From an uncultured Rickettsiales bacterium (lineage in GTDB: Bacteria; Pseudomonadota; Alphaproteobacteria; Rickettsiales; JALZUV01), in assembly GCA_964654855.1 (NCBI GenBank), contig CAZZJS010000001.1, positions 17,772 to 81,771 on the forward strand: DNA of 64,000 bases. Direction: 5' to 3'. Shown in pieces: positions 18,473-63,319 of the stretch. The first letter of the stretch is position 1. Every line of letters starts with the position of its first letter. A model generated the notes under the pieces. That model did no database searches. It saw nothing but the letters and a program-made list of their open reading frames with translations, and had not been told where the DNA came from. The position numbers and the translations under genes are program-made.

Positions 18473-18496
18473 AAAAGATCAAACAAAAGGAATATC

Positions 18497-19528: not shown

Positions 19529-19561
19529 TGTTCGTTAGGGTTCTACACAATTAGGTGACTG

Positions 19562-20350: not shown

Positions 20351-20363
20351 GGAGAGTATCACC

Positions 20364-24792: not shown

Positions 24793-25351
24793 CATTCGCA
24801 GAATCAGCACTCCAACGGTTAGGTAAGAACGCCTCATCTAAAGGCGTTTGTACGATGTGATTAGTGTAGTTTGACATGGTTTTCAATGCCGTTGCTAACA
24901 CAATTTCCAATACATGCTGCTGCGTATAACCCGCACCAAAGAAAGCCTGCATTTGCTCTGCACTTGGTGTACCGCGCGTCTCATTTACGATTTTTGCGAA
25001 TTCACGCAATGCTTCGAATTTTGCATTTGGTAGTGCTGTTTGGTTACGCAAAGCATCCACCACTTCCGCCTCTACGCCTTTCATTTGCGAAATCGTCGTA
25101 TGCGCTGCCATACAATAAGTGCAGCCATTTTGAATATTATTGGTCATTAATACAATCTGGCGCTCAGTCTCGGTAAAGCTGGTTTTATCAACAAAACCAG
25201 AGAGGGCTAAATAACCTTCTAATAAAGCCGGAGCTTCTGCCATTTTGGCGAAAATATTGGGCACAAACCCCATAGAGCCTTGAACATTCTCTAATGTTGC
25301 TTTTGCCTCTTGTGGTGCTGTCTCTACTGTGTGCGTGGTGAATGATGTCAT
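24785..25351 (-). CDS. Carboxymuconolactone decarboxylase / AhpD-like family protein
   Basis: AhpD-core CxxC motif in NGCTYCMAAHT, about 188 aa. Confidence 0.85.
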   Translation of the reverse strand: MTSFTTHTVETAPQEAKATLENVQGSMGFVPNIFAKMAEAPALLEGYLALSGFVDKTSFTETERQIVLMTNNIQNGCTYCMAAHTTISQMKGVEAEVVDALRNQTALPNAKFEALREFAKIVNETRGTPSAEQMQAFFGAGYTQQHVLEIVLATALKTMSNYTNHIVQTPLDEAFLPNRWSADSANAA

Positions 25352-25512: not shown

Positions 25513-27537
25513 TTATTTTAAAACAGATAAAATGCTGGAACGATGATCAGTCCAAAGGGGTGAGTCAGGCGCTGCTTTGAGAGACGTAAAATTCATTTTA
25601 GTAAATTGTTCATCCCAGTGCGAATTAGGCTTTGCCATAAAGATCCACTCTGCGGTGCCATCATAAGAGAATTCAGGGTTATATTCAAAGCGCTTATGGT
25701 AAACGGCCATATTATATTCTTTTGCTAAACGAGCGAGTATGGGGCGCAAATCTGTATGGCGCGCGATAATATTAAATGCGAGTAGACCGTTTTGAGGGTT
25801 TAGCTTGCTAAGATAAATGCCGAGTGCCTCTTTGGTGAGTAAGTGCATAGGGATGGCACTTGAATTAAAAGCATCCAGCACAATTAAATTATATTTCTCA
25901 TTAGATTGCTTCCTGATTTCCAAACGACCATCTCCAAGAATGAGGTTTGGTTTGCCAGGGCAATCACGCAAATAGGTGAAATAGTCAGAGTTTTGTGCAA
26001 TCTCTGCGACGAGCGGATCAATCTCGTAAAAATCGATAATTTGATTTTCTGAAGCCATGCAGGTAAGCATTCCCGTGCCTAAACCAATGACTGCAAAAGG
26101 TTGTTCAAAGAAGCCAGAAGGTGTGTTTTCCATCAAGTTTCGGAGGTTGTGGTTGAGGTATAATTCGTGCCCAGGGAAAGTTGGTTGGTATCCTTGCTTA
26201 GTGCTGCCAATTTCGAGAATGCGCACAAAGAAGGGGGAGGCCTTTTCAGCGACTTTTTTAACACCAAAGAAGTTTCTCGCTTGATATTGCGCTTGGTAAT
26301 CATCGCTTTCTGTCCAAGTGATGATCAGTGCTAAAACAATGCATGAGGTGCTGCCAGCAAAGGCTGCTTTGCGTAGGGTGCTAAATTGGTGATGGTTCTT
26401 GAACCAATAGGTAAATGGAACGCTGAGCGAGAGTATTAGAATGATCGGGTATTCATAAATATCGTTGAATAAATAAGGCGCAATATTGGCGAATAAAGCT
26501 CCCAGAGCACCGCCTAGTGCAAGCCAAAAGTAATAGGAAGTAAGAGCCTCTGGTGCAGGTTTCTCTTTTGCTATTTGGCCATGACAACTAAGTGAAATGA
26601 TGAAGAGACATAGTAGGTGCAGTGCCACTTGCTCCATATAATAATTCTTGGCATAAAAATGCGAAAGAAATGCATAGACGTACCCTGCGAGTAAAAAGAC
26701 GAGAGCACAGATAGGTAAATGAAGGTGTTGTGCGAGGCTGATCCAGCGAGCTGCATTATTCGAAAAGGCGATAATAAAACTCAACAAATACAGTGCTAAT
26801 GGCAAAACCCATAAGAGCGGAATGGTCGCGATATCTGTCGTGATGAAGAGTGTTGTGCTTAAAAAGAGAGCGGATGGAATAAATCCCAAAAACAGGATGC
26901 GGAGGATAGACGAAGAGTTGAGAGCAAAGCTTGTATGTAAGCTCTCTGTTTGCGTTCTGATATGACGTAACTTTAAAGTGGTAAGGGTTAGTAATAGTAT
27001 CAATCCATAGAATAAATAACTCCAAGAAAGCATCTGTTCTTTTAGGGGGAAGAGCCATTCAATAAGAAGAGGATAGCTGAGCAACCCTGCTAAACTTCCA
27101 GCATTGCTAATCGAAAATAGAAAGTAGGGCGAGGTGCCGTTTGCTTGATAGTACCAGCGTTGCAAAAGTGTGGCGTTAGAAGCAAGTAGAAAATAGGGCA
27201 GGCCAACAGTGAATAAAAGGGTAACTACTATCCAATATTCTGGAATTGATTGAGGTAATTGCCCACTATATTGCAGCGATAATGGCAGCGTGAAGATAAG
27301 GGCAAGAAACAATAAGCCTAAATGAAGTTGGCTTTGCCGTTTTGCGGTTAAATAGAGGCTGCTAACGGATGCATAAGCATAGCCTGCCAATAAGAGTATT
27401 TGGAAAAATAATATAGAGGTAACCCATATAGCGGGTGCGCCGCCTACTTGTGGCAGTAAAGATTTCACCAATACCGGCTGAATAATAAAAAGCAGAAACG
27501 AGCCTAAAAATATGGCGAGTGAGAAGAGAGGTGCCAT
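25513..27537 (-). CDS. Fused polytopic membrane (MFS-like) / spermidine synthase-like protein
   Basis: About 400 aa of TM helices are followed by a class-I methyltransferase/aminopropyltransferase-like domain (VIGLGTGMLT, LIVLDAFNSSAIPMHLLTKEA). Confidence 0.75.
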   Translation of the reverse strand: MAPLFSLAIFLGSFLLFIIQPVLVKSLLPQVGGAPAIWVTSILFFQILLLAGYAYASVSSLYLTAKRQSQLHLGLLFLALIFTLPLSLQYSGQLPQSIPEYWIVVTLLFTVGLPYFLLASNATLLQRWYYQANGTSPYFLFSISNAGSLAGLLSYPLLIEWLFPLKEQMLSWSYLFYGLILLLTLTTLKLRHIRTQTESLHTSFALNSSSILRILFLGFIPSALFLSTTLFITTDIATIPLLWVLPLALYLLSFIIAFSNNAARWISLAQHLHLPICALVFLLAGYVYAFLSHFYAKNYYMEQVALHLLCLFIISLSCHGQIAKEKPAPEALTSYYFWLALGGALGALFANIAPYLFNDIYEYPIILILSLSVPFTYWFKNHHQFSTLRKAAFAGSTSCIVLALIITWTESDDYQAQYQARNFFGVKKVAEKASPFFVRILEIGSTKQGYQPTFPGHELYLNHNLRNLMENTPSGFFEQPFAVIGLGTGMLTCMASENQIIDFYEIDPLVAEIAQNSDYFTYLRDCPGKPNLILGDGRLEIRKQSNEKYNLIVLDAFNSSAIPMHLLTKEALGIYLSKLNPQNGLLAFNIIARHTDLRPILARLAKEYNMAVYHKRFEYNPEFSYDGTAEWIFMAKPNSHWDEQFTKMNFTSLKAAPDSPLWTDHRSSILSVLK

Positions 27538-27553
27538 GAAAAATCAAGCGACT

Positions 27554-27829
27554 TTACGGGCAAAAAGGAGGAGGATTCGGAGGGACGCAATTATCGGATA
27601 GAAAACCCATACTTAACGCTTGTTTAGAGGAGAGTACGACCATGGCAGCTCCTCCAGCAGCGGAGTATTTCGTTAGAGCTTTAATGGCTTCACGACGATC
27701 AATCTCATCATCATCGTCAATACCATGCTCTGCCTCAAAATCTGTAGACTCAACCTCGTCATGAAGTGTTTCTTCTATCGGCTCTTCTGCCGATTCAGAA
27801 TCTGAGATGTTATCGTTCATATTGGTCAT
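27554..27829 (-). CDS. Small acidic protein with internal Tat-like RR motif and Cys/Pro-rich C-terminus
   Basis: 91-aa ORF with GAGGA 10 nt upstream of the ATG. It ends 16 nt upstream of the next gene in the same orientation. The sequence reads ...DRREAIKALTKYSAAGGAAMVVLSSKQALS-MGFLSDNCVPPNPPPFCP. Confidence 0.5.
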   Translation of the reverse strand: MTNMNDNISDSESAEEPIEETLHDEVESTDFEAEHGIDDDDEIDRREAIKALTKYSAAGGAAMVVLSSKQALSMGFLSDNCVPPNPPPFCP

Positions 27830-27911
27830 GTGGATGGAATCCTCAAAATAGCCTTACCTTGATACTAGTTTAGCAGCTTCGGGGGTAATGCGTCAAATTG
27901 CAAAAAAGAGA

Positions 27912-30650
27912 CTATAAGGGTTGAGAAAACTTAAGATATTGATTGGGGGTAATAGATTCTATCGTTTGCGGCATTGCTTCGCCACACCAATGAAGATCCA
28001 GTGTAATATCATGCGGTTCTTCAGCGCCTAATCCAAAGAAAAGTCGAGGGTCATTCTGTGCGTTTAACCCATTTGAAGCAAGCCTGTAGCGAGTTTGTAT
28101 TTTTGGCGCCCCATTCACTCGATAAGATAGGGTTGCCTTGGTACCTATAGCATCACGGTTGCATGTTTTTCCATCACCTTTCAAATCCAAGCTCAACCAG
28201 TAAGAATCGCTAACAGATTCATTTTGGTAGAATGATGGGGGGGCGGTCATGCGAGTAACGATCGTATCTAAATCACCATCATTATCAAAATCAGCGAGAG
28301 CTACGGCTTTCGTATTATCTAGCTTCTCCCAGCCGGTGGAATCCGCAACATCCTCAAATTGCGCCTGCCCATTATTCAGCCAGACGCGCTTACGTTCTTG
28401 CGGATAAAGGCACTCGCCGCGCATATCCGGCCAATTATTTGCATAGCCATGCGTATCAGCGGGGGTGAACTCTATCTGAAACATTTTATACACATAATCT
28501 TCACATGCTTTGCTAGGGCTTTGGTCATAGGATTGGTCAATCCAGCCATTCATTTGTAGCAGATCCAAGGTGCCGTCGCGGTTAACATCACCTACCGCAG
28601 CGCCCCAGCCGAAACGATCATGGTTGAAAAGGTTGGAAGCAAAGGCTTGATCAACAAAATTTGCAGCATCGGGGGTAAGGTTTCCTTGGTTCATCCAGAG
28701 CATAGAGCCTTCAGGCACTTCTTTTTTATGCATGTTAGAAACGTAGATATCTTCAAACCCATCGGCATTAAAGTCAGCAAAGGAGGCATTCATTCCACGA
28801 TAAGTATCGTTGCCCAGTTGATGTTTTTTCCATCCGCTAACTTCTGAAAACCGTTCGCCTTTAATATTTAAGAGTAACTTATCAGGGCCGGCTGTATTGG
28901 CAAAATAAAGATCCATCCAGCCATCATTGTTCACATCACCTGCGCCAATATCCAAGGTCCAGCGGGTTTCATCTTCGATACCCCACGGTGCATTATTTTG
29001 TATTTCGTAGCGATCACCTTGGTTAATGAAAATACGATTTTCGCCGCCATTGCGGGCATCAAATGGATTGCGGCGCATAATATTAAGTGGGCGGTTATCT
29101 TCTGCATTTTCAGCTTTGGGAAGGTTAAATAAATTAAGCGGGGTAGGTTCCTCATAACTTGCATGATGGCGAGCGAGTGTGCCGCCCATAATGATATCCA
29201 ACTTACCATCGCGGTTGATATCAAGCACGTTTGCCGTCGCGCTATTCATATAATGATCTAGCCCTTTGGCTTTGGTGATATCAATAAAATCGAGCTGGCC
29301 AGTTTCTGATAGAGTATTTTGTAACAGCAATGGTGTGCCGCCATAACGGGTGAGAAGGAGGTCTTGGTCGCCATCATTATCTTCATCAAACCAGAGTACA
29401 TCCATCGCGACTCCTTCTGACTTTGCGTGATTTCGTAATCTATTGAGTGTACGAATTGGGTGTTTCGTAAATTTGAAATTCCCTTGATTTAAATAAAGTT
29501 GAGTACGATCCTCAGCGCGTTTAAGCGGTAAAGTAAGGAAGATATCAGGTAAACCATCTTGGTTCACGTCACTCACCGCTACTGCATCTCCCATGGAGAA
29601 AAACCATTTTGCGACATGCTGAATCCGTTGATCTGCTTGTTCTAATGTATCGCCTTTTTGAGCGCTAATGCCAGCCGATTGAGCCGTTATTTCTTTCAAA
29701 TGAAAATCAGATTTAGGAAGGAAGGTGTTTGATGAGCTATTGGCAAGTAACTGGTAAAAAGCGATGCTCAATAATGTTATTAACCCAATAGTAAGTGCAG
29801 GTTTTGTTTTGGTTGAAAGGCGTTCGGGAATGGTTTTCAAATCCATCTTCTGCTGCAACCAAATCCAGCGCAGAGCGAAATAAGTAATGCCTGCGTAAAA
29901 GAGGGTGAAGGTGAGTTGCGCCAAATGGAACAGAAAGTCGAAACCGACAATGGCGGCGGCCATACCGACTTGCCCTTTCCAATGTGATGGAGAAGTTTTT
30001 GGGTCAGTCAGCATGAAGTAGGTGAACAGATAAAAGGCAGGATTGCGCAATACGCCATCAATCAGCGCGAGCGGCGGGATGGCGGTATCTAGCACAAAAG
30101 TGCGTAAGTAAAGCTGTATGCCGTAAAAGATCAAGAAGCTGCAGGTGAGCACTAAGCGTGAAACATTGAAGAGGAATACGCTTAAAGCGGTGATGGTGAA
30201 AAAAAATGCCATGACCGCTTGTCCACCCCATTGTGCAGCAGAGGCCGGGCTAATTAATCCATCGGTGATGAGTAAGCATGCAACCAGTCCAAACATACCG
30301 GGGTTGAAGATATGTTTGTCATTCGCGGTGATAAGATATTTAGAGCAAATAGCGATAAAAATGGGAATAGCACCGAGCAAAATAGTATGTGCAAAGTTGG
30401 TTAGAATTGAAAGACCAAGGCAGGTAATAACGGCACTCATCGGAAAGAGAATGCCTTGCCCCGGTCGTAAGATGCGATGCAAGATCATATCAGTGCTGAT
30501 GCCCACCAATAGGATGAAAAAAACCTGTTCAGGTGTTTTGTTAATGCCCAGTAGGCTGATGCCGATAATAAGGAAAATAGCGAGCAACCCAGCGACACGA
30601 ATACGCGGATCGTTCCAGCCATGATAATTATTCCAAGTGAGGTTAGCCAT
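27912..30650 (-). CDS. Fusion protein: RnfD/NqrB-like polytopic membrane domain + FG-GAP/VCBS beta-propeller + ASPIC/UnbV domain (CRTAC1 family)
   Basis: The N-terminal ~330 aa contain KHIFNPGMFG and MLTDPKTSP, which are RnfD/NqrB hallmarks. Seven D-x-N/D-x-D-G-x-x-D repeats follow (DVNQDGLPD, DEDNDGDQD, DINRDGKLD, DVNNDGWMD, DFNADGFED, DVNRDGTLD, DFDNDGDLD). The C-terminal NRDAIGTKATL...DPRLFFGLG is the ASPIC/UnbV motif. The ATG at 30650 is 1 nt after the lnt stop. Confidence 0.85.
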   Translation of the reverse strand: MANLTWNNYHGWNDPRIRVAGLLAIFLIIGISLLGINKTPEQVFFILLVGISTDMILHRILRPGQGILFPMSAVITCLGLSILTNFAHTILLGAIPIFIAICSKYLITANDKHIFNPGMFGLVACLLITDGLISPASAAQWGGQAVMAFFFTITALSVFLFNVSRLVLTCSFLIFYGIQLYLRTFVLDTAIPPLALIDGVLRNPAFYLFTYFMLTDPKTSPSHWKGQVGMAAAIVGFDFLFHLAQLTFTLFYAGITYFALRWIWLQQKMDLKTIPERLSTKTKPALTIGLITLLSIAFYQLLANSSSNTFLPKSDFHLKEITAQSAGISAQKGDTLEQADQRIQHVAKWFFSMGDAVAVSDVNQDGLPDIFLTLPLKRAEDRTQLYLNQGNFKFTKHPIRTLNRLRNHAKSEGVAMDVLWFDEDNDGDQDLLLTRYGGTPLLLQNTLSETGQLDFIDITKAKGLDHYMNSATANVLDINRDGKLDIIMGGTLARHHASYEEPTPLNLFNLPKAENAEDNRPLNIMRRNPFDARNGGENRIFINQGDRYEIQNNAPWGIEDETRWTLDIGAGDVNNDGWMDLYFANTAGPDKLLLNIKGERFSEVSGWKKHQLGNDTYRGMNASFADFNADGFEDIYVSNMHKKEVPEGSMLWMNQGNLTPDAANFVDQAFASNLFNHDRFGWGAAVGDVNRDGTLDLLQMNGWIDQSYDQSPSKACEDYVYKMFQIEFTPADTHGYANNWPDMRGECLYPQERKRVWLNNGQAQFEDVADSTGWEKLDNTKAVALADFDNDGDLDTIVTRMTAPPSFYQNESVSDSYWLSLDLKGDGKTCNRDAIGTKATLSYRVNGAPKIQTRYRLASNGLNAQNDPRLFFGLGAEEPHDITLDLHWCGEAMPQTIESITPNQYLKFSQPL

Positions 30651-30651
30651 G

Positions 30652-32223
30652 CTAGAAATGCTCGTTTTTGTGCAAAATAAAAGCAAACCCTAACAGTAAG
30701 AGCGCAAAGCTGAAGAAGCTAAAGAGTCCGTAGCGGCTATAGAAGGTTTGTTCATTTTGCACGATAGGAATGGCGATATCTTGAAAGCCCTTTTCATGCA
30801 GTCCGATAGAGGTGAGTAATGTGCCATAGCGATCATAAGCAGCGCTGATACCGCTATTTGCAGCACGAATGATGGGCACGCCTTGCTCCACGCCGCGCAT
30901 ACGCGCCATATGTAAATGCTGATAAGGGCCAGCACTTTTGGCAAACCAACCATCATTGGTAATATTGACGAGTAGGTCGATAGGTTGATCAAAAAACGCA
31001 TGACGGCTGAAAATTGCCTCATAACAAATGAGCGAACCAATGTTTAACGAACTATCATCTAATGTAAGGAGCTTCTTTCCTTCGGCAGGCGTAAAATCTA
31101 ACTTTCCGGGGATCACTTTGCGAATGGGCAGAATGCTGCGAAAGGGTACATATTCGCCAAAAGGAACCAAATGGTGTTTATCGTAATATTGAACCTGCGC
31201 TTGGGAGGTAATAGCGGCAAGGCTATTCCATGCCTTATAGTTATCGCGGCTAGAGCCTTCGCCACGAATGGCACCTGTTAGGAGGGTTGTGTTAGGAGAT
31301 AGAAAGCTTGCCAACTTTGCAATCCACTCACTGTCTTTATCTAAATAGTAAGGGAAACTGGATTCTGGCCAGATGACAAGATTTAGTGGTTGCTCACTCG
31401 GCATTTGTGTCATGCTTGTGTAGTCGGTGAATGCCTGTTTTTTGTTCCAATTGCGTTCTTTGGCGACATTACCCTGAACCAATCTGGCTTGCAGATGTTT
31501 TGAATTTTGAGGGAGATCAGAAATGCGCAGGTGGCTCCAACCGCAAATCGCTAGAAGAAGGCAGATGCTGACGCCCACTAAAGCATAACGATACTTCGTT
31601 TGATAGGCTAAGAGAGCGGGTAGGGTGGCGAATAAAACGGTGAGTAAGTTTAGCCCGTAAATGCCAATAAGCGATGCAGGTTGCAGGAATATCTGATTGA
31701 TGGAAAGGCTGTAGCCGATGGCATTCCAAGGAAAGCCTGTGAAAAGATAACTACGTGCGACTTCCCATAAGGCAAAAAGAATCGCAAATAAAAGGATGCG
31801 TGAGCTGATTGCAGAGAAGCGGAATCGTTGCTTAATCAGATGGTAGGTTAGGCTAACTAAACCCCAATAGATGGATAAAATGGAAGAGAGGCCGAGCGTA
31901 GCAAAAGGGATCATCCAAGCGAATCGGGTGGAATCAACGAGGAGAGATAAAGCGATCCAATAAGTGCTGGAAAGGAAAAACCCTAGCCCGAAAAACCAAC
32001 CTGTAAGGAATGCTACCTTCTTCTGTTTCGTATGGTCAGCTAAGATGAATAAAATACCAAAGACTGGGATAAGCAATAGGGTGAAGAAAAAAGGGGCGAG
32101 CGTAAGCATAGCGCCGACACCTATCAATAATAAAAGCAAATAGCGCTTCCAGCTAGATAGGTTAGCGAGCCATTTCAACTTTTGGTTAAGCGGCATCTTC
32201 TCCGTAGCTACCATAATAGCCAT
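30652..32223 (-). CDS. lnt: Apolipoprotein N-acyltransferase
   Basis: Multi-TM N-terminal half plus a CN-hydrolase domain with the Glu/Lys/Cys triad contexts WPESSFPY, YDKHHLVPFGEYVP and SLICYEAIF. The start is uncertain (32223 or 32196); both overlap the wzc 3' end. Confidence 0.85.
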   Translation of the reverse strand: MAIMVATEKMPLNQKLKWLANLSSWKRYLLLLLIGVGAMLTLAPFFFTLLLIPVFGILFILADHTKQKKVAFLTGWFFGLGFFLSSTYWIALSLLVDSTRFAWMIPFATLGLSSILSIYWGLVSLTYHLIKQRFRFSAISSRILLFAILFALWEVARSYLFTGFPWNAIGYSLSINQIFLQPASLIGIYGLNLLTVLFATLPALLAYQTKYRYALVGVSICLLLAICGWSHLRISDLPQNSKHLQARLVQGNVAKERNWNKKQAFTDYTSMTQMPSEQPLNLVIWPESSFPYYLDKDSEWIAKLASFLSPNTTLLTGAIRGEGSSRDNYKAWNSLAAITSQAQVQYYDKHHLVPFGEYVPFRSILPIRKVIPGKLDFTPAEGKKLLTLDDSSLNIGSLICYEAIFSRHAFFDQPIDLLVNITNDGWFAKSAGPYQHLHMARMRGVEQGVPIIRAANSGISAAYDRYGTLLTSIGLHEKGFQDIAIPIVQNEQTFYSRYGLFSFFSFALLLLGFAFILHKNEHF

Positions 32224-34435
32224 AATAACCGTAAAGATTGAGCGCTTCCAGATCGACTTGAGTTAATAAAGAGCCTGCGATTTTATCGGCCACTTCGGGC
32301 GATCGTGTGAGCGCATTATTGATCATATTTTGGTTTGTTTTGCCCCAGTGAGCGAGGAAAATGAAACTATCAATCGAGTCAGCCATCGCGCGTGCATCTG
32401 CAATATTCATAATAGCAGGTAGATCGATGAGAATGATGTCAAAATTAGGCCGAAGCTTAGCGATTAATTCGCCCATTTGGCCAGAACCGATAAGGTTTAG
32501 GTTCGTTGTCGGAGTTTTGCTACCTTTAGCTGGAATAAAAGAAAGGTTTGGCGTGCCGGTTTTATGGCAAATATTATCGATTGCGCTCTCACACTCTTTT
32601 GGACTCAAGCCTTCCATTTCGTAAGCTAGTTCGTAAAAGCCTGTTTCAGCCTTTGGGTAGAGCAATTGAGTTAAGCTTGGGCGACGAAAATCGCAATCAA
32701 TCAATGCCACTTTTGCTCCCGTTTTCGCAAGATGCTTTGCGAGGAAACAAGAGGTGGTTGATTTACCTTCTCCAGGGTTTGCAGAAACAAGCGAAACAGA
32801 TTTGTGTGTTTCATTGGGTGCGCTGAACTTAATGGCCAATTGTGTTGTCCGCATGACTTCAGAGAGAGAGCTAGTCTGCTGGCCTAGCATTTCAGTTATT
32901 TTCTCAAATACGTCTTCCTGAAAGCCTTTCGTAGTCTTTTTATCGCGTGATTTTTTTTTCTTATTGGCTTGTTCTGTTAAGAAATCGACTTGAGTAATCA
33001 TTCCAAGGCAGGTGCGATTTGTTGCTTCTTCAAGCTCCTCTGCTTTACGAATATAGCTATCAAGGCGTTCGCGTAAAAAGACAAGCCCCACACCCAGTAA
33101 AGCACCAAAGACTGAAGATAAAATGAGAATAAGTGGTTTATTTGGCCAACTCGCATCCATAGGCAAGGTCGCATAACTAATTACTCGTCCTTGTATAAAA
33201 GGTGCAGATTGTCGTTGAACTTGCTCGTTCAAGTTATTGAGAAGATTTGTATAGAGATCTTGTAAAGAATTGGCTCCACGCTGTAACTCGCGCAGTTCAA
33301 TTTGATCATGTTGGTCGGTGAAGGAGTTGTCGCTGACAGCTGACAACTCCTCTTGCAATTTCTTCTGTTTTGAAAGTGCAATTTTATACTCATTCTCAAA
33401 CCCTTGAACGATGCGCGTATGTTCTTCTCTCATCAAGTTTTGAATGTCATTGATTTGTTGCTCAAGTGTCGTATAGGCTTGGTGCTTTGTGCCTTGGCCA
33501 CGCCTAATTTTTGCAGATCGTTGTGTTAGATCAATATATTGATTTCGCAAATTATTGAGCACTTTATTCTCAGTAGAGTTGCTGATGATTTTTTCAGAGC
33601 TACCTTCATCTAGAAGACTTTTTAAGTTCTCGTAACGTGCTTTAGCTTGTGCTGTATCAGTGCGAGCAATGATTAAGTTCGTATTTAATTCAGAAAGTTG
33701 TTGTTCATTAATGCTCTCTCGGCGAGGGCTATTAACAATATTTTTAGTTGATTTATACTCGTGAACTTTTTGTTCAGCGACGTTGAGGTCCTCACGTAAT
33801 TTTTCAACTCCCTCAGAAAGCCACTGATTGATCCGTTGTGAAGCCTCATACTGCGTTACAAGCTCTTGCTCTAAATAAACGTCAGCAATAATGTTGGCGA
33901 GGTCTTTCGCTTTTTTTCTGCTATCTGCAGTATAGCTAATATCTAGCACATAGGTGCGCTTGACACGTTTAACATCTAATCCATCTCTAAATTTCTGGAA
34001 GGCCTCTTTTCGGATTGTTTCTTTTTCAAGCTGTTTTGCTTGCTCCGCATTGCCGAATAAAGCTCCTCTAAAGGAGTGTAGAAGTTCATTACGGGGTTGT
34101 TCAAGATTTTGGTATATACTCGCTTTCTCAGCTACTTTTTCGAGCATTCTGCTGGAATGCATAACTTCGATTTGGCTATCAAGGATCAAATTTTCACGAA
34201 AATTCATCATCTGCAGTAAGCGATTAGGCATGACTGCTGATTGGCGCGGATCGATGAGGAGCGAGGTGGTAGCCGTATAAAGTGGCACTGAAACGGTAAT
34301 GTAGAGGAAACCCAGCATAAAGCAGGTAACGCTGCATAAGACGATCAGTTTGCGATGGCGCTGTAAGGCAGCGACGAACTCTCTAATATAGAGCATAGCA
34401 TCGAACTGCTGCTGCGTATCCAGATTATTCTGCAT
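32186..34435 (-). CDS. wzc: Polysaccharide co-polymerase / BY-family tyrosine autokinase (Wzc/GumC-like), copy 1
   Basis: Wzz-type N-terminus with a TM segment, then a long coiled-coil periplasmic region and a second TM segment. The kinase has Walker A SANPGEGKST, CDFRRPSL and Walker B-like IILIDLP. The tail is Tyr-rich (YGYYGYYGSYG). Confidence 0.9.
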   Translation of the reverse strand: MQNNLDTQQQFDAMLYIREFVAALQRHRKLIVLCSVTCFMLGFLYITVSVPLYTATTSLLIDPRQSAVMPNRLLQMMNFRENLILDSQIEVMHSSRMLEKVAEKASIYQNLEQPRNELLHSFRGALFGNAEQAKQLEKETIRKEAFQKFRDGLDVKRVKRTYVLDISYTADSRKKAKDLANIIADVYLEQELVTQYEASQRINQWLSEGVEKLREDLNVAEQKVHEYKSTKNIVNSPRRESINEQQLSELNTNLIIARTDTAQAKARYENLKSLLDEGSSEKIISNSTENKVLNNLRNQYIDLTQRSAKIRRGQGTKHQAYTTLEQQINDIQNLMREEHTRIVQGFENEYKIALSKQKKLQEELSAVSDNSFTDQHDQIELRELQRGANSLQDLYTNLLNNLNEQVQRQSAPFIQGRVISYATLPMDASWPNKPLILILSSVFGALLGVGLVFLRERLDSYIRKAEELEEATNRTCLGMITQVDFLTEQANKKKKSRDKKTTKGFQEDVFEKITEMLGQQTSSLSEVMRTTQLAIKFSAPNETHKSVSLVSANPGEGKSTTSCFLAKHLAKTGAKVALIDCDFRRPSLTQLLYPKAETGFYELAYEMEGLSPKECESAIDNICHKTGTPNLSFIPAKGSKTPTTNLNLIGSGQMGELIAKLRPNFDIILIDLPAIMNIADARAMADSIDSFIFLAHWGKTNQNMINNALTRSPEVADKIAGSLLTQVDLEALNLYGYYGYYGSYGEDAA

Positions 34436-34565
34436 GAGTGGAATAGACCGCCTTATACTCTTTATTCACCTCTATCGACAATAGATGAAACTCTTAGCGA
34501 TGGAAAGGAAGCAATACAATGAAAAAGAATGGCGGGGATAAGAGTTCTGGTGCGTGGCAGAATGA

Positions 34566-35690
34566 TTACCTAAAACGCTGAATCCGGTCTTTATGAAAGG
34601 TAAAAAAATGTTGCCACCCTCTTAGGGTCGTTATTTTTTTTAGGTAATGCTTTCGTTTTTGTGGGTTGGTAAAGAACTGAATGAGGTATCTTTTAAGCCA
34701 AATAAAGCTATCAAAGTATTTTTGTTGAGTGGGGCGACCAAAATTATGTAACGCTTTTTTTGCCCATGTGTTTTTTTCAATGGCGCTTGTCTCTACAAAA
34801 AGGCTTTCTGTTAGAGTATCCAAGCTATCTAAAAGGTCATTCAAATGATGTTTTTCGAATATCTCAGCCGTTTTATTGCGAGTTTTTTGGTCTAATTTTT
34901 TATTAAAATAAAAATGATCGACGCAATGACGCAGGTTTAACAGCTTGCGTCCATAATATTGAGATTCAAGTTGGCAATGAATTAAATGATGCGTGAAGCG
35001 GTCTTGAGGAGAGGGAATAAAAATACCTTCAAAGTGAGCGGAAATTGCATTTCTAAATATATGTGCTGCAGGTAATATTGCATCAGAGTTTTGATCGCCA
35101 ATGCGTTTATGGAGTTCAATACGGAAGGGTAGTTCCCCGCCTTCAATTCCAGGGATATGGTGGTGCTGTTCGAATAATATTTGATCTTTCGTATTGAGGG
35201 ATCCTCCTCTGGCAAGTAGTAGCTCGATTGCACTGTCAATTTGGTTCTCAGGAATCAATATATCTAAATCGCTAAGGAGGCGGTGCGAAGGATCATCATA
35301 ATAAGGAGTTATCATTTCGGCAGCACCTTTGAGGGCAACCGCATTAATACTTTTTTCTTTAAATAATAATCCAAGCGTTTCTAGCTCGTGTTTCGCAGTT
35401 TGGTTGCGTTTTTTATTCTCAGAATGAATAAGTGAAAAATAAAGAAATAAATCCTCTGGAATAAATTCCTGTAACTCAGGGTATTTAGTAAAAGCGGAGC
35501 GGATTAAAGTATGGACTTGGTTGTCGTTTGCTATTTTTGCGAGATGCTGAGGGTCGCTATTTTTAAGGTCATCTTTTAAGTAAGGCGAAAATGTGCCGCC
35601 TATTGCTGCGGATGTAAGGCCAATAACTGCGCGATGAGCGGGCGAGTTGCAAAAAGAATCTAGCAGGCTTATGTGGTGAGTTTTAGGCAT
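34566..35690 (-). CDS. Nucleotidyltransferase family protein (uncharacterised NTP_transf_5 type)
   Basis: ALKGAAEMITPYYDDPSHRLLSDLDILIPE matches the LKG...R.x.DxDxLV signature of this family. It overlaps the upstream kinase gene by 22 nt. Confidence 0.7.
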   Translation of the reverse strand: MPKTHHISLLDSFCNSPAHRAVIGLTSAAIGGTFSPYLKDDLKNSDPQHLAKIANDNQVHTLIRSAFTKYPELQEFIPEDLFLYFSLIHSENKKRNQTAKHELETLGLLFKEKSINAVALKGAAEMITPYYDDPSHRLLSDLDILIPENQIDSAIELLLARGGSLNTKDQILFEQHHHIPGIEGGELPFRIELHKRIGDQNSDAILPAAHIFRNAISAHFEGIFIPSPQDRFTHHLIHCQLESQYYGRKLLNLRHCVDHFYFNKKLDQKTRNKTAEIFEKHHLNDLLDSLDTLTESLFVETSAIEKNTWAKKALHNFGRPTQQKYFDSFIWLKRYLIQFFTNPQKRKHYLKKITTLRGWQHFFTFHKDRIQRFR

Positions 35691-36775
35691 GTTTGAACTG
35701 AATAATCGGATGAAGAATAAGATAGGTTATAAGCTGGTACATGGTTCAGCAATGTTGCTATGGGGATAATAGACGGAGATTTATGATAAGTTCTGCCGCC
35801 AGCTTCAATCAATTGCTGTAAGGCTGTTTCTGGTGAAATTAGGGTTATTTCATTTCTATGCCTCTCTCCAAAATGTGGAAAAATAATCGCAGAAACGGCT
35901 GATGTTTGGCCTAATGGCACGGCATTTCTAATTTGATTATAGGTTACTCCATATCGAGGTGCAGTTGAATTTGGTTCTTCAAACCCTAGCTCCTTTGCTT
36001 CTCTTAGATTTAAAGAACCTGCTTTTAATCCAATCGGGGTTGGGAAAGAAAATACAGCTTTGCCATTGCGATGCAAAGGTAAGACATCGTCAGCCATAAA
36101 GTTAAAGCCTGCAGCAACAAGCCCCGCCGTAAGGGTTGATTTTCCGTAACCGCTTTTCTGGGTAATAAGAAGTGTTTTATTATCTTGATTGGTCGCGCAG
36201 CTCGCATGCAAAATAGCGCCGACGTTTTCCGGATTACATAAATGAGCGGCGGCCTCTCTAAATACTAAGTTACGTGCTAAGTCTATATTACAGCTCCCCC
36301 ATAAGGGTTGTTGATTCAGAAAAACTCCAAATTCATTTGCGATCGAAATAATCTCAATTACAGCAGAAGTCGAGTTGCTTATCTCATCAGAATATGCGGT
36401 AAAAACTTCCTGTATCTGTCGAAATAAATGTTCATCATCGCATCGAATATGCAGGCTGTTATGTTCTGATTTTAGCTGTAGTTGTTGGTACGGTTTGCTG
36501 ATAGGGCGGTAAGTGACGGTTGTGGGGAAGGCTGGTTTTTGGGTATCCAGCAATCCAGCTTCGTGCCATGCTTGTAATATGTCTGCATGGGCAGAGCTCG
36601 AGCGGCCTTCACGCAAATCATGATATAAATCATAGCCATCCTGATTGGATAAAATAATGGCATCCGAAAGAGGGGAGTGAAGAATATAACTGTCTCCCAA
36701 CGGCGTGCATTCCAGTGTGGAAATGCTGCTAGGTTCTAATTTCTGATGAAGGCTCAGGCTCATTAATAGAGTCAT
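35669..36775 (-). CDS. HprK-related kinase (HPr kinase C-terminal-like P-loop) with N-terminal PqqD/RRE-like region
   Basis: P-loop and flanks LITQKSGYGKSTLTAGLVAAGFNFMADDV resemble the HprK catalytic core. The first ~80 aa (YILHSPLSDAIILSNQDGYDLYHDLREGRSS..ILQAWHEAGLL) look PqqD-like by eye. Confidence 0.65.
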   Translation of the reverse strand: MTLLMSLSLHQKLEPSSISTLECTPLGDSYILHSPLSDAIILSNQDGYDLYHDLREGRSSSAHADILQAWHEAGLLDTQKPAFPTTVTYRPISKPYQQLQLKSEHNSLHIRCDDEHLFRQIQEVFTAYSDEISNSTSAVIEIISIANEFGVFLNQQPLWGSCNIDLARNLVFREAAAHLCNPENVGAILHASCATNQDNKTLLITQKSGYGKSTLTAGLVAAGFNFMADDVLPLHRNGKAVFSFPTPIGLKAGSLNLREAKELGFEEPNSTAPRYGVTYNQIRNAVPLGQTSAVSAIIFPHFGERHRNEITLISPETALQQLIEAGGRTYHKSPSIIPIATLLNHVPAYNLSYSSSDYSVQTCLKLTT

Positions 36776-37189
36776 ATCATACTCGCAAAAGACATGAAAC
36801 CATTTGCAATGACTCTTGCAAGAGGCTGTTTTTTAATGCCAGTAGAGAAGTTTACGTTCTTTTCTTATCAGAGGAGAATCCTGAAGGTGTATTTTCTAAT
36901 AGGGGTAATCACCCTTAAGTTGTCTAAACTTCTGTTAGTAAACTTGGCTATTTATTAAGAAAGTGTTTCAATATTAATACAGTTTTTGACAAAAGTAGCG
37001 CTAGTGCGGGTTAAAAATTCCATCTTCAGGCTATTTCTGTATTATGTAATTCAATGTGTTGGTAAGCTAAGTAATAGTTTTGGTACGCTTCTTGAAGATG
37101 CAGTTTCGAAAGAAGTGGAAAAGTGGGATATTAGAATTGCTATGGTTGTAAGTAAGTTGTCAAATATTGTAAGCGGCCGAGGTTTTGCT

Positions 37190-38377
37190 ATGGGGCGCAC
37201 AGCGCTGCATTTGTTGGCGGCAGGTTTTTTGTTAAATGGTTGTATGGCAGTTCCTGCCGATGGTCCATCAGCAGGTGCAGTTGCTTCTGCAGCAGGTGAA
37301 CGTATTCAAGGTAGCGTGAACGGAGAAGGCGACGGTAATTTACCGTTCGTTTTTGTTGACGCAAATGATGAGAATATTGGTATTGTTTCTGAAGCGGATG
37401 CTTATGGTCATTTCAAAGGTGAGTTTACAGATCGTCGCGATGCGGCAGATATCCGTATTGGTTTAGGTGATACGATTCGAGTGACAATATTTGAGGCTGG
37501 CTCAGGTGGTTTGTTTGTACCTGCGAGTGGTTCATTGAGCTCAGGAAACTTTGTATCCATGCCTGATCAGGAAGTGGATCGTACGGGTAGTATTACGGTT
37601 CCTTATGCAGCAAAAGGAAAAGACGGTGGTGTCATTAAAGTTTATAACCGCCGCCCAATTGAAGTGCAGGCAGATATTGAGCGCCGATTAGCTGATCGTG
37701 CGATTGAGCCGCAAGCGGTCGTGACGATTATTAACCGTACGTCAAATCTTTACTCTGTTATTGGTGATGTGAATGCTCCGGGTCGTTTCAACGTTCCGCA
37801 AGGTGGTATTCGTATACTTGATGCAATTGGTATGGCAGGCGGCTTGAACGGCACTGATTACGAAACATTAGTTACCTTGCAGCGCGATGGTAAGTCATCT
37901 ACTGCGCGTATTGTGTCTTTGTTAGATCAACCGCAGAATAATGTGTTTGTTCGCCCTAGTGATATTCTCTCGCTTAAGAAAGAAGAGCTTTATTATAATG
38001 TGTTAGGTGCGGTTACAGAAAGTGGTCGTATCTCATTGAACGAAGAAAAAGTGACACTGGCTGATGCGATATCGCGAGCAGGTGGATTAGATATTGAGCG
38101 TTCAGAGGCAAAATCGGTTCTGATCTATCGTGACGAAAGTAAGAGTACTTTGAGAGATATTGGTGCGAAAGTTGAAGGGCCTGAACTCTCAAGTCGTGAT
38201 AAAGTTCCAACCGTGTATCGTGTAAACTTACGTGATCCGAATGGTATCTTTGTCGCTCAGAAATTACAGCTGCGTCACAATGATATGGTTTATGTTGATA
38301 ACCATCCGATTGTAGGAACCAGCCGTATTCTTTCTATTATACGTGATCTTCTGGTGGTGCGCGTGATAGATGGCTAA
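37190..38377 (+). CDS. wza: Outer-membrane polysaccharide export lipoprotein (Wza/OPX family)
   Basis: Lipoprotein signal MGRTALHLLAAGFLLNG-C, Poly_export motif IGLGDTIRVTIFE and two SLBB-like repeats (GDVNAPGRF...ILDAIGMAGGL and GAVTESGRI...LADAISRAGGL). Alternative starts are at 37142 and 36986. Confidence 0.85.
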   Translation: MGRTALHLLAAGFLLNGCMAVPADGPSAGAVASAAGERIQGSVNGEGDGNLPFVFVDANDENIGIVSEADAYGHFKGEFTDRRDAADIRIGLGDTIRVTIFEAGSGGLFVPASGSLSSGNFVSMPDQEVDRTGSITVPYAAKGKDGGVIKVYNRRPIEVQADIERRLADRAIEPQAVVTIINRTSNLYSVIGDVNAPGRFNVPQGGIRILDAIGMAGGLNGTDYETLVTLQRDGKSSTARIVSLLDQPQNNVFVRPSDILSLKKEELYYNVLGAVTESGRISLNEEKVTLADAISRAGGLDIERSEAKSVLIYRDESKSTLRDIGAKVEGPELSSRDKVPTVYRVNLRDPNGIFVAQKLQLRHNDMVYVDNHPIVGTSRILSIIRDLLVVRVIDG

Positions 38378-38410
38378 GGGGTTTTCCTCTAGCCTTCGCG
38401 CGGAGCATAG

Positions 38411-40828: not shown

Positions 40829-40835
40829 GTGTACC

Positions 40836-41885: not shown

Positions 41886-42004
41886 AGGACTCCCTTTTTT
41901 TAATAGAAGATTCTAAAATTTATACAGTTTTTATGAGAAGTTCCAAGTGAAGAAAAATGAAAAACCAATAGTCATTCGTCTCTGATTCTGTGATACTTCA
42001 GCCC

Positions 42005-43852: not shown

Positions 43853-43870
43853 TCGTTAAGGTATTCCTAT

Positions 43871-45700: not shown

Positions 45701-45703
45701 CGA

Positions 45704-46708: not shown

Positions 46709-46753
46709 AAGGATAAAAAGTATGGTGTGTTTAATCGCTGAATAGAAAGAAAA

Positions 46754-48957: not shown

Positions 48958-48967
48958 AGTTACCCTT

Positions 48968-49660: not shown

Positions 49661-49663
49661 GTC

Positions 49664-50599: not shown

Positions 50600-50647
50600 T
50601 TTTACGCTACTCTTATTTCTAGAATCTAATAGATGGGGATAGGATAG

Positions 50648-51487: not shown

Positions 51488-51497
51488 ATATTGTGCA

Positions 51498-53985: not shown

Positions 53986-54000
53986 TAAGGAACCGTAATC

Positions 54001-58491: not shown

Positions 58492-58617
58492 TCTTATCCC
58501 TATATACGCATCATAAATGCTGATGAAGCAAGTGCAATAAATTCGCCTGTTTCAGTCCTCTATTTTGGTCTTTTAGGAGAAAATACTTCTGAAATGATCC
58601 TTTAAGGAGAGGTAGGG

Positions 58618-59271: not shown

Positions 59272-59274
59272 TCA

Positions 59275-61551: not shown

Positions 61552-61643
61552 TTTTTAAATTTTAGCACACCTTACGATTGCAAGATTTTCCTTACCTTTC
61601 GCTTGTATGGATTATTGATGCCGCTGACAACTAATTAAATCTA

Positions 61644-62519: not shown

Positions 62520-62550
62520 TGATATATAATGACTTTTGTAGACTAAAAAG

Positions 62551-63318: not shown

Positions 63319-63319
63319 G

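What the first reader, a model, noticed from the sequence alone, without database searches (positions are those of the whole stretch)
25513..36775. Eleven-kb co-directional gene string joining an RRE-like kinase, a nucleotidyltransferase, Wzc, Lnt, an RnfD::CRTAC1 fusion, a tiny Tat/Cys-Pro peptide and an MFS::spermidine-synthase fusion
Seven genes on the minus strand run from 36775 to 25513 with very tight junctions. The kinase and NTase genes overlap by 22 nt, and wzc and lnt overlap. The lnt stop is 1 nt from the next ATG, and the peptide gene ends 16 nt from the MFS/SpeE start. Only two gaps exist (130 and 82 nt), and I see no convincing terminator in either. I do not know this combination as a described system. 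It brings together a peptide-recognition-like domain fused to a P-loop kinase, a nucleotidyltransferase, a lipoprotein/lipid N-acyltransferase, a redox-subunit-like membrane domain fused to a Ca-binding propeller, a candidate exported mini-peptide and a polyamine-synthase-like membrane protein. All of this sits at the edge of an EPS locus. It could be an envelope or peptide modification module coupled to polysaccharide export. That functional reading is inference only.
Basis: partly seen in the sequence, partly recalled or inferred. Interest (0 to 1): 0.7.

Follow-up and report, generated by a model that had tools for sequence, protein, structure and literature searches.

The report
Leader-peptide tailoring cassette in EPS locus
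The seven-gene string is real but is a mosaic, and its interesting core is an apparently undescribed cassette found in polysaccharide loci of several alphaproteobacteria: a tiny peptide with a twin-arginine leader and a hypervariable tail, next to a peptide-binding kinase and a nucleotidyltransferase.

Summary
Seven minus-strand genes run from 36775 to 25513 with the stated overlaps and gaps, and almost all the domain calls are right.

- **Core cassette.** The 91-aa peptide, the PqqD/RRE–HprK-like kinase and the PF14907 nucleotidyltransferase recur together in about 8 independent alphaproteobacterial loci. The hosts include Cribrihabitans, Leisingera, Methylobacterium, Ensifer and MAGs. Where enough flanking sequence is available, the cassette usually lies inside a polysaccharide locus. 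The peptide belongs to an unmodelled family of 89 clusters. Members share a conserved twin-arginine leader and have hypervariable tails (Cys–Cys loops, poly-Arg/Lys, Trp-rich).
- **Locus-type partners.** MFS::SpeE and Wzc travel with the kinase and NTase in this lineage's EPS locus type.
- **Passengers.** Lnt and RnfD::CRTAC1 form a tight pair only in close relatives. In 79 other genomes from many phyla the fusion sits with Rieske, GH3 and desaturase genes instead.

A conserved promoter-like element lies just upstream of the peptide gene, so the string is probably more than one transcript.

The closest known analogue is lasso-peptide tailoring by PsmK and PsmN. No lasso machinery is present here. 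The proposed mechanism (cytoplasmic phospho- and glycosyl or nucleotidyl tailoring, then Tat export) is inference.

The parts
35669..36775 (-). PqqD/RRE-like N-domain fused to an HprK-like P-loop kinase (368 aa). The RRE part carries a 19-aa internal deletion relative to homologues.
   Evidence: TIGR04352 HprK_rel_A scores 57 bits (cutoff 200) and Hpr_kinase_C has E = 3e-4. The homologue in L089 reaches the PqqD PF05402 gathering score. In alignment A5, H190, K212 and D229-D230 are invariant. The best PDB hits of the profile are HPr kinase/phosphorylases.
34566..35690 (-). PF14907 (NTP_transf_5) nucleotidyltransferase. It overlaps the kinase gene by 22 nt.
   Evidence: Pfam E = 1e-27. It is paired with the kinase homologue in L001, L086, L089, L092, L095, L096 and L097.
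32186..34435 (-). Wzc-type polysaccharide co-polymerase / tyrosine autokinase with a C-terminal Tyr cluster. It belongs to the EPS locus, not to the peptide cassette.
   Evidence: Wzz, GNVR and AAA_31 domains; TIGR01005 315 bits, below its 411.7 cutoff. It is absent between the NTase and Lnt genes in L001. It sits next to the kinase/NTase/MFS::SpeE genes in L086 and L097.
30652..32223 (-). Apolipoprotein N-acyltransferase (Lnt). It may be the housekeeping copy. It is tightly joined to the next gene.
   Evidence: TIGR00546 311 bits against a cutoff of 133, plus LNT_N and CN_hydrolase. The Lnt-fusion pair with 1-nt spacing is also seen in L001 and L002/L003. In L090 Lnt sits directly before the peptide gene.
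27912..30650 (-). RnfD-like membrane domain fused to an FG-GAP/UnbV_ASPIC (CRTAC1-type) propeller. It is a lineage-specific passenger.
   Evidence: FG-GAP_3 E = 1.7e-35 and UnbV_ASPIC. There are 782 homologues, most of those listed carrying PF03116. In 79 other genomes it sits with Rieske, GH3, desaturase and three unknown genes and with none of the window's genes.
27867..27896 (-). Promoter-like element (TTGACG, 18 nt, TG-n-TAAACT) just upstream of the peptide gene.
   Evidence: Found by the scan. It is conserved at the same place in L001 and L090 although the flanks diverge and the upstream gene differs. It occurs once in the window with 0 expected by chance, and is absent from the other 96 loci.
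27554..27829 (-). 91-aa precursor-like peptide. It has an acidic N-region, a conserved twin-arginine leader (DRREAIKALTKYSAAGGAAMVVLSSKQALS) and the tail MGFLSDNCVPPNPPPFCP.
   Evidence: The family has 89 clusters in 1.84 billion representatives and shows a conserved leader with hypervariable tails. No Pfam or NCBIfam model covers it. The homologue P0248 scores 16.2 bits on TAT_signal_seq against a cutoff of 16.7.
25513..27537 (-). Fused polytopic membrane domain and spermidine-synthase-like domain (MFS::SpeE). It starts 16 nt after the peptide gene.
   Evidence: NF037959 46.7 bits against a cutoff of 40. AF2 model has pLDDT 90.9. Foldseek matches spermidine synthases at E = 5e-7 and the profile matches PDB entries at E = 6e-5. 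It lies beside the peptide and/or the kinase/NTase genes in L001, L086, L090 and L097.
36986..63769 (.). The EPS locus in which the string is embedded. It contains Wza, Wzy_C, GT4, EpsG, AsnB, an ABC exporter, NeuB/NeuC/NeuA, methyltransferases, GT2, an acetyltransferase, an epimerase, UDP-sugar dehydrogenase, Bac_transf, a second Wzc and Metallophos.
   Evidence: The locus is syntenic with L086 and L097.
23398..24837 (-). Alginate_exp-type outer-membrane porin, downstream on the same strand.
   Evidence: PF13372 E = 3e-49. A weak Alginate_exp gene also follows MFS::SpeE in L001, on the opposite strand.

Best explanation
The string is a mosaic of three layers.

**Layer 1: core cassette.** This is a conserved, apparently undescribed peptide-tailoring cassette made of three genes:
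- a small precursor with a conserved twin-arginine leader and a hypervariable tail;
- a PqqD/RRE domain fused to an HprK-like kinase;
- a PF14907 nucleotidyltransferase.

**Layer 2: locus partners.** In this lineage MFS::SpeE and Wzc are fixed neighbours of the cassette, inside a Wza/Wzy/Neu-type EPS locus.

**Layer 3: passengers.** Lnt and RnfD::CRTAC1 form a tightly coupled pair that is specific to close relatives and probably serves a separate function in envelope lipid or lipoprotein metabolism.

**Proposed mechanism (inferred, not shown).**
1. The RRE domain binds the conserved leader in the cytoplasm.
2. The kinase phosphorylates the peptide.
3. The NTase adds a sugar or nucleotide to the phosphate, as PsmK and PsmN do on a lasso precursor.
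4. The tailored peptide leaves through the general Tat pathway and signal peptidase I cuts it after the A-x-A/S site.
5. It then acts in the envelope or EPS matrix.

MFS::SpeE may add a further modification or an export step for the Cys-loop (class A) tails.
For: **Shown: co-occurrence.**
- The peptide lies within 10 kb of kinase and NTase homologues in the window, L001, L086, L089, L091/L092, L095 and L096. In L094 a Tat-like ORF that the leader model does not detect takes its place. Relevant calls: 15, 30, 33, 34, 39, 49, 73-76, 82, 83, 92.
- The link is reciprocal. The three plasmid loci examined were found through the kinase, and each had a Tat-like small ORF beside it.
- Two class-B loci carry tandem precursor genes with one leader and different tails.
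- L086 and L097 keep the kinase, NTase, MFS::SpeE and Wzc genes in the same EPS locus type but have no Lnt or fusion.

**Shown: sequence features.**
- All 95 family peptides have an RR or KR motif followed by at least 14 uncharged residues, and many have an A-x-A-like site. Tails are hypervariable.
- The PqqD domain reaches the Pfam gathering score in the L089 homologue.
- The kinase has invariant H, K (P-loop) and DD residues, and its best PDB hits are HPr kinases.
- The NTase is PF14907.
- Class-B loci contain no recognisable dedicated transporter or protease gene, which fits export by housekeeping Tat and LepB.

**Precedent.** PsmK (HprK family) phosphorylates a ribosomal precursor, and PsmN (an uncharacterised NTase family) is required for hexose addition to the phosphate. 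This is reported in PMC6993621 and PMC9266682.
Against: - No chemistry has been shown.
- The phospho-acceptor is unknown. Lasso kinases use a C-terminal Ser, but class-A tails end in Cys-Pro and family C-termini vary.
- The window kinase has a 19-aa deletion in its RRE domain and lies about 8 kb from the peptide gene.
- L090 has the peptide with Lnt and MFS::SpeE but no kinase or NTase within 10 kb.
- The kinase scores far below the TIGR04352 cutoff.
- The Tat call is borderline: 16.2 against 16.7 bits in a homologue, and no hit for the window peptide. RR sits at residue 45-46 after an unusually long acidic N-region.
- Only about 9 contexts could be examined, and all are alphaproteobacterial.
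Confidence: 0.5

Rival explanations
1. One reading: all seven genes form one co-transcribed functional module that modifies the envelope or a peptide and is coupled to polysaccharide export.
For: Junctions are tight and no terminator-like site lies in the gaps. Six of the seven genes keep the same order in L001, at 50-74% protein identity.
Against: - Wzc is absent from the string in L001.
- Lnt and the fusion are absent from L086 and L097.
- The fusion's 79 other genomic contexts share none of the other genes.
- A conserved promoter-like element sits before the peptide gene.
Confidence: 0.08
2. The kinase and NTase act on the polysaccharide or a sugar precursor rather than on the peptide. The peptide would then be an unmodified Tat-exported mini-protein, for example a matrix-binding or antimicrobial peptide co-regulated with EPS. 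The PqqD domain would serve as a protein-protein contact or as a Tat-signal chaperone.
For: - The cassette sits in polysaccharide loci in the window, L086, L089, L095 and L097.
- Polybasic tails occur in a locus with sulfotransferases, which suggests binding to an acidic polymer.
- The tails have no conserved acceptor residue.
Against: Documented PqqD/RRE domains bind peptides, and HprK-family enzymes with a known function phosphorylate proteins or peptides. The tight peptide-kinase adjacency and the tandem precursor genes are typical of substrate-enzyme pairs.
Confidence: 0.2
3. The conserved N-part is a RiPP leader rather than a Tat signal. An unidentified protease removes it, and the MFS domain of MFS::SpeE or another transporter exports the core.
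For: - The leader is conserved far more strongly than ordinary Tat signals across distant taxa.
- In the window RR lies 45 residues from the N-terminus.
- MFS::SpeE accompanies class-A peptides in all four loci that have context.
Against: All 95 members satisfy the RR + uncharged stretch + A-x-A-like architecture. Class-B loci have no recognisable transporter or protease. Weak TAT_signal and formate_TAT hits are also seen.
Confidence: 0.15
4. The string is simple synteny by descent, with no functional link among the genes. It would be a chance run of co-directional genes at the edge of an EPS locus.
For: Most of the close contexts come from one lineage of related MAGs.
Against: The peptide-kinase-NTase trio recurs in Rhodobacterales and Hyphomicrobiales with different gene orders and on plasmids. 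That pattern is not explained by descent alone.
Confidence: 0.05

Closest known systems
Lasso-peptide tailoring pair PsmK/PsmN (also PadeK, ThcoK, SyanK)
   Same: An HprK-family kinase with a His-Lys-Asp-Asp motif acts on a ribosomal precursor peptide. An 'uncharacterised nucleotidyltransferase' is then needed to decorate the phosphate (PMC9266682, PMC6993621). The window has the same enzyme pair with overlapping genes, and the invariant residues are present.
   Different: - There is no lasso cyclase, B1 or B2 protease. The locus's AsnB scores 235 bits against the 525 cutoff of the cyclase model, but passes the AsnB cutoff.
- The RRE domain is fused to the kinase.
- The precursor has a twin-arginine leader and no conserved C-terminal Ser.
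- The cassette sits in EPS loci.
NCBIfam 'HprK-related kinase A' (TIGR04352), which I recall being linked to a PqqD-family protein and a PF14907 NTase
   Same: It is the best-scoring family for the kinase domain of the window protein and all homologues.
   Different: Scores are 57-66 bits against a cutoff of 200, so these proteins are not members. Here PqqD is fused to the kinase, whereas in that system it is, as I recall, a separate protein. The make-up of that system is from memory and was not verified.
Twin-arginine (Tat) signal peptides and their signal-binding proofreading chaperones (TorD/DmsD type)
   Same: The peptide has an RR motif, a moderately hydrophobic Gly/Ala-rich h-region of at least 14 residues, a basic c-region and an A-x-A-like site. 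A cytoplasmic leader-binding protein is encoded nearby.
   Different: The cargo is a peptide of 7 to about 100 residues, not a cofactor enzyme. The N-region is long and acidic. The putative binder is a PqqD domain fused to a kinase. Tat dependence has not been tested.
Bufferins (signal-peptide-bearing Cys-containing RiPPs made by MbnB/DUF692 enzymes)
   Same: They are small exported peptides with Cys pairs. MFS::SpeE homologues at 41-45% identity sit beside MbnB, HvfC and BufA1 genes in L087 and L088.
   Different: No MbnB/DUF692 or HvfC gene was found among the window genes scanned. The leader family and the tailoring enzymes are different.
Wza/Wzc/Wzy-dependent capsule or EPS loci
   Same: Wza, Wzy_C, Wzc with a Tyr cluster, Bac_transf, glycosyltransferases and Neu genes surround the cassette.
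   Different: As far as I know, and as far as four literature searches show, such loci are not described as containing a precursor peptide with an RRE-kinase and an NTase.

Membership tests
Lasso-peptide biosynthetic cluster with kinase/NTase tailoring | HprK-like kinase with a catalytic His-Lys-Asp-Asp motif | tested here: met
   H190, K212 and D229-D230 are invariant in five homologues. The best PDB hits are HPr kinases.
Lasso-peptide biosynthetic cluster with kinase/NTase tailoring | Lasso cyclase (Asn-synthetase-like C protein) and leader protease B2 in the cluster | tested here: not met
   The only Asn-synthase homologue (41990-43852) passes the AsnB cutoff (494 against 267) and fails the lasso cyclase cutoff (235 against 525). 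No B2-like gene was found among the window genes scanned, and none is recognisable in L089 or L095.
Lasso-peptide biosynthetic cluster with kinase/NTase tailoring | Precursor with a conserved C-terminal Ser as phospho-acceptor | tested here: not met
   Class-A tails end in Cys-Pro. C-termini vary across the family.
HprK-related kinase A (TIGR04352) | Score at or above the curated cutoff (200 bits) | tested here: not met
   57.2 bits for the window protein and 57-66 bits for homologues.
RRE-dependent RiPP system | PqqD-like RRE domain in a tailoring protein | tested here: inconclusive
   PF05402 reaches the gathering score in the L089 homologue (23.8 against 23.4) and is weak in L001 (E = 0.17). 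It gives no hit in the window protein, which has a 19-aa deletion there.
RRE-dependent RiPP system | Precursor with a conserved leader and a variable core, encoded beside the enzymes | tested here: met
   The conserved leader and hypervariable tails are seen in 95 sequences. Adjacency and tandem copies are seen in L086, L089, L091/92 and L095.
RRE-dependent RiPP system | Demonstrated post-translational modification of the core | not testable with these tools
   This needs mass spectrometry of co-expressed products.
Tat substrate | Twin-arginine motif, uncharged h-region of at least 13 residues, A-x-A-type cleavage site | tested here: met
   All 95 family members have RR or KR followed by at least 14 uncharged residues. 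The window has RREAIK...YSAAGGAAMVVLSS...ALS. In most members an ASA/Y-like site follows.
Tat substrate | Score on the curated Tat signal model (TIGR01409) at or above cutoff; Tat-dependent export | tested here: inconclusive
   P0248 scores 16.2 bits against a cutoff of 16.7. The window peptide gives no hit. Tat-dependent export was not tested.
Apolipoprotein N-acyltransferase (Lnt) | TIGR00546 above cutoff, LNT_N and CN_hydrolase domains, Glu-Lys-Cys triad motifs | tested here: met
   311 bits against a cutoff of 133, and both Pfam domains are present. The motifs WPE, KxHLVPFGE and ICYE can be read in the translation.
Rnf/Nqr subunit RnfD/NqrB | PF03116 membrane domain | tested here: inconclusive
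   No hit for the window protein. PF03116 is precomputed on most listed homologues but is marked faint or weak. phmmer against PDB found nothing.
Rnf/Nqr subunit RnfD/NqrB | Covalent-FMN attachment motif ([ST]-G-A-[TS]) and partner rnf/nqr genes | tested here: not met
   The family consensus at that position reads ITPAPAYQWGG, and the window reads ISPASAAQWGG. The motif definition is from my own knowledge. No rnf or nqr partner was found among the window genes scanned.
Fused MFS/spermidine synthase (NF037959) | Score above cutoff; polytopic N-domain plus spermidine-synthase fold | tested here: met
   46.7 bits against a cutoff of 40. AF2 model has pLDDT 90.9 with about 13 helices followed by an alpha/beta domain. 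Foldseek matches spermidine synthases at E = 5e-7.
Wzc / PCP-2a tyrosine autokinase | Wzz + GNVR + P-loop domain and a C-terminal Tyr cluster | tested here: met
   The Pfam domains are present. The C-terminus reads YGYYGYYGSYGEDAA. The TIGR01005 subfamily score is below its cutoff (315 against 412), so this is a divergent member.

The most novel reading that the evidence does not exclude
These peptides would be a new class of Tat-exported, phospho-glycosylated or nucleotidylated ribosomal peptides. Their modification would tie them physically to the capsule or EPS, for example as a peptide primer, anchor or cross-linker of an acidic polysaccharide. The PqqD-kinase would act both as tailoring enzyme and as a Tat-signal proofreading chaperone.
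Probability: 0.15. Interest if true: 0.85.

Novelty: new variant of a known kind. Interest (0 to 1): 0.6.

Why it matters
If the cassette works as proposed, it extends kinase/NTase peptide tailoring beyond lasso peptides, the only setting where it is known. The new setting would be a leader-dependent system without a cyclase, whose leader looks like a Tat signal.

Three consequences follow:
- Ribosomal peptide tailoring would be linked to the Tat pathway.
- A peptide component would be linked to capsule/EPS loci of Alphaproteobacteria, including roseobacters and rhizobia.
- The poly-Arg/Trp and Cys-loop tails are candidate bioactive or matrix-binding peptides.

The analysis also shows that an eye-catching gene string can be a mosaic. 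It separates a widespread, uncharacterised RnfD::CRTAC1 operon (with Rieske, GH3 and desaturase genes) as its own problem.

Tried and rejected
**Searches that gave little.**
- The genome-contig scan with the fusion alignment returned 79 loci, but none from the window's own clade. It was useful only to show the fusion's other context.
- The metagenome scan with the peptide alignment gave only 3 loci. One of them (L093) was a false positive.
- tblastn of the L089 kinase against plasmids at 1e-8 found nothing. The window kinase at 1e-3 found 10 records.
- phmmer of the RnfD-like domain against PDB gave no hit.
- Four literature searches found no description of the cassette or of the RnfD::CRTAC1 family.

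**Structure attempts.**
- The single-sequence model of the kinase was useless, with pLDDT 33.
- A positive-inside count on the MFS::SpeE loops was uninformative.

**Readings rejected.**
- Lasso peptide: no cyclase or B2 protease, and no conserved C-terminal Ser.
- Lipoprotein substrate of Lnt: the residues before the first Cys (SDN-C, SEE-C, GSQ-C) do not form a lipobox.
- Functional Rnf subunit: the FMN-attachment motif is not conserved and no partner genes were found.
- A single operon: a conserved internal promoter-like element is present.

Full report
**Observation**

- Kinase and NTase overlap by 22 nt.
- The lnt stop is 1 nt from the next ATG.
- The peptide stop is 16 nt from the MFS::SpeE ATG.
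- The only gaps are 130 nt and 82 nt.
- The wzc/lnt overlap depends on the start codon. The public call for Lnt is 485 aa and starts at Met39.

No terminator-like hairpin falls in either gap, but the 82-nt gap holds a promoter-like site. The domain calls hold up:
- PF14907 NTase, E = 1e-27.
- Wzc, with Wzz, GNVR and P-loop domains and a Tyr-rich tail.
- Lnt, TIGR00546 at 311 bits against a cutoff of 133.
- FG-GAP/UnbV_ASPIC propeller, whose homologues carry the RnfD family PF03116 at the N-terminus.
- Fused MFS/spermidine synthase, NF037959 above cutoff.

An AF2 model of MFS::SpeE has pLDDT 90.9, and its C-terminal domain matches spermidine synthases at Foldseek E = 5e-7. A family profile also hits spermidine synthases in PDB. 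The kinase gives only weak HprK-type hits, below every cutoff.

**Surroundings**

The string is one arm of a large EPS locus. Diverging from the kinase gene are Wza, Wzy_C, GT4, EpsG, AsnB and an ABC exporter. Beyond them lie NeuB/NeuC/NeuA, methyltransferases, GT2, an acetyltransferase, an epimerase, a UDP-sugar dehydrogenase, Bac_transf, a second Wzc and a Metallophos protein, out to about 63.8 kb. Downstream on the same strand is an Alginate_exp porin.

**Is the string conserved?**

Conservation is partial and comes in layers.

*Closest relative.* L001 is a MAG labelled Rickettsiales (GCA_029252805.1), with proteins 50-74% identical. It has kinase-NTase-Lnt-fusion-peptide-MFS::SpeE in the same order but no Wzc.

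*Lnt and the fusion.*
- A 50%-identical fusion in another genome keeps only Lnt upstream, again with 1-nt spacing.
- In 79 further genomes from many phyla the fusion is never near any of the other six genes.
- In those genomes it sits with a Rieske oxygenase, a GH3-family enzyme, a fatty-acid desaturase and three unknown proteins. None of these is in the window.

*MFS::SpeE, kinase, NTase and Wzc.*
- L086 and L097 have MFS::SpeE at 52-53% identity. They carry kinase, NTase, MFS::SpeE and Wzc next to the same Wza-Wzy-GT4-AsnB-ABC-NeuB genes, in different orders and without Lnt or the fusion.
- L090 has Lnt-peptide-MFS::SpeE with no fusion.
- More distant MFS::SpeE homologues (about 41-45% identity) sit in unrelated contexts.

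**The peptide is the key**

In L086 a 70-aa homologue of the peptide overlaps the start of the kinase gene. A profile of the first relatives found more members. A full HMMER scan of 1.84 billion representatives gave 89 clusters.

All 95 sequences examined share the same architecture:
- a usually acidic N-region;
- a conserved stretch, [YF][ST]RR[ED]A.xA[LM]xKYSAAVGGAAxxVV[ST]A, that often ends in ASA;
- RR or KR followed by at least 14 uncharged residues;
- a hypervariable tail.

The tails fall into several kinds: Cys-x6-12-Cys loops (NPPP[WFY]C recurs, as in the window), poly-Arg/Lys (RRWRRWRRW, KPGKPG), Trp-rich and Gly/Asn-rich. Many end in GRIxF.

No Pfam or NCBIfam model covers the family. 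The only hits are borderline Tat-signal models.

**The cassette**

Wherever context could be read, the peptide is close to kinase and NTase homologues.
- Cribrihabitans pelagius: two tandem peptide genes (one of them unannotated), then PqqD-kinase, then NTase, at the end of an EPS locus with sulfotransferases.
- Two JGI contigs: two tandem peptide genes, then kinase and NTase.

Searching plasmids with the kinase gave the reciprocal result.
- Leisingera aquaemixtae: peptide-kinase-NTase beside polysaccharide genes.
- Methylobacterium tardum: an unannotated Tat-like ORF directly upstream of a protein that PGAP calls a 'PqqD family peptide modification chaperone', with an NTase and a stand-alone PqqD-like ORF diverging from it.
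- Ensifer adhaerens: kinase, NTase and peptide, with the kinase and peptide genes frameshifted.

Further sequence evidence:
- The L089 kinase reaches the PqqD gathering score.
- The window kinase has a 19-aa deletion in that domain.
- His, P-loop Lys and Asp-Asp are invariant.
- The profile's best PDB hits are HPr kinase/phosphorylases.

**Transcription**

The element TTGAC[GT]CA-N11-CTG[CT]TAA..T lies upstream of the peptide gene in the window, L001 and L090, although the upstream gene differs in L090. It occurs once in the window, with 0 expected by chance, and nowhere in the other 96 loci. I derived the pattern from these three sequences, so the uniqueness test is not independent. The conservation in otherwise divergent spacers still points to a dedicated promoter for the peptide gene, and probably for MFS::SpeE as well.

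**Mechanism (inference)**

The nearest documented system is lasso-peptide tailoring. HprK-family kinases phosphorylate the linear precursor, and PsmN, from an uncharacterised NTase family, is required to add hexose to that phosphate (PMC9266682, PMC6993621).

By analogy I propose these steps:
1. The PqqD domain binds the conserved leader.
2. The kinase phosphorylates the peptide.
3. The NTase decorates the phosphate.
4. The product is exported by Tat and cut by signal peptidase I.

Class-B loci have no recognisable transporter or protease gene, which fits export by housekeeping machinery. MFS::SpeE accompanies only the Cys-loop class so far. It may add an aminopropyl-type or methyl-type modification, or contribute to transport.

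The following are not shown: binding, phosphorylation, the acceptor residue, Tat dependence, and any tie to the polysaccharide.

**Lnt and the fusion**

The 1-nt spacing is kept in three genomes, which suggests translational coupling. The fusion's wider partners (Rieske, GH3, desaturase) and Lnt's chemistry both point to envelope lipids. Nothing links the pair to the peptide beyond adjacency in close relatives. The RnfD-like domain lacks the FMN-attachment motif as I know it, so a redox role is doubtful.

**Verdict**

- The string is a mosaic, and the notable result is the peptide + PqqD-kinase + NTase cassette in EPS loci.
- I rate the cassette a new variant of a known kind, namely leader-dependent peptide tailoring.

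Noticed in passing
L004, L006-L085 (for example L006 4937-14625; L004 8898-18172): The RnfD::CRTAC1 fusion family spans many groups: cyanobacteria, Myxococcus, Bdellovibrio, Neisseria, Massilia, Acidobacteriota, Verrucomicrobiota. In 29-42 of 85 loci it sits with each of five partners, and in 17 with a fatty-acid desaturase. The five are a Rieske/VanA_C oxygenase, a GH3-family enzyme, and unknown proteins of about 371, 262 and 215 aa. The set looks like an uncharacterised lipid-related operon.
   Followed up: partly
L087 10001-12842 and 17917-20024; L088 8330-12067: MFS::SpeE homologues at 41-45% identity lie beside MbnB_TglH_ChrH and HvfC_N genes. L087 also has BufA1 (bufferin-type genes), MauE/DoxX, and an MFS_1 gene followed by an Acyltransferase + AMP-binding (Aas-like) gene. 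This hints that the MFS::SpeE family works with exported Cys peptides or with lysophospholipid recycling.
   Followed up: no
window 59275-61551 and 58618-63769: A second Wzc paralogue (758 aa) has neighbours (a 217-aa protein, a 304-aa protein, Metallophos and a 149-aa protein). In L086 the homologues of these neighbours lie directly upstream of the peptide-kinase pair. The window locus therefore looks like an expanded version of the L086 arrangement.
   Followed up: partly
window 16967-23378: A gene set reminiscent of arsenosugar or arsenolipid biosynthesis. It contains an ArsS-like radical SAM (TIGR04167, 63 bits, below cutoff), DUF2064, GT2, PNP_UDP_1, FA_hydroxylase, a Methyltransf_31 methyltransferase and a pyridine-nucleotide disulphide oxidoreductase.
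   Followed up: no
window 9898-14379: A stand-alone NRPS protein of 1493 aa, with two Condensation-domain matches plus adenylation and PP-binding domains. DUF3047 and DUF547 genes follow it.
   Followed up: no
L089 10339-10818; L094 8283-8567 and 7752-8105(-); L091 647-916: Several ORFs are missing from public annotation or gene calls. They are a second leader peptide in Cribrihabitans pelagius (KPGKPG-repeat tail), a Tat-like 94-aa ORF and a stand-alone PqqD-like ORF on the Methylobacterium tardum plasmid pMt-1, and a second peptide with the short tail YGHSSWWST in JGI contigs.
   Followed up: partly
L096 6411-9062 (Ensifer adhaerens pCasidaAB): The kinase homologue and the downstream leader-peptide gene each appear frameshifted. 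Either the cassette is decaying or the assembly has errors.
   Followed up: partly
window 34436-34565: The NTase-Wzc gap contains a block (TTTTTCATTGT...CATCGCTAAG) that is conserved with the corresponding gap in L097. It could be a promoter or regulatory site for wzc.
   Followed up: no
window 30145-30624 (+): A 159-aa antisense ORF inside the fusion gene appears 'conserved' in L001 and L002. This is most simply a by-product of conservation of the coding strand and not a gene.
   Followed up: no
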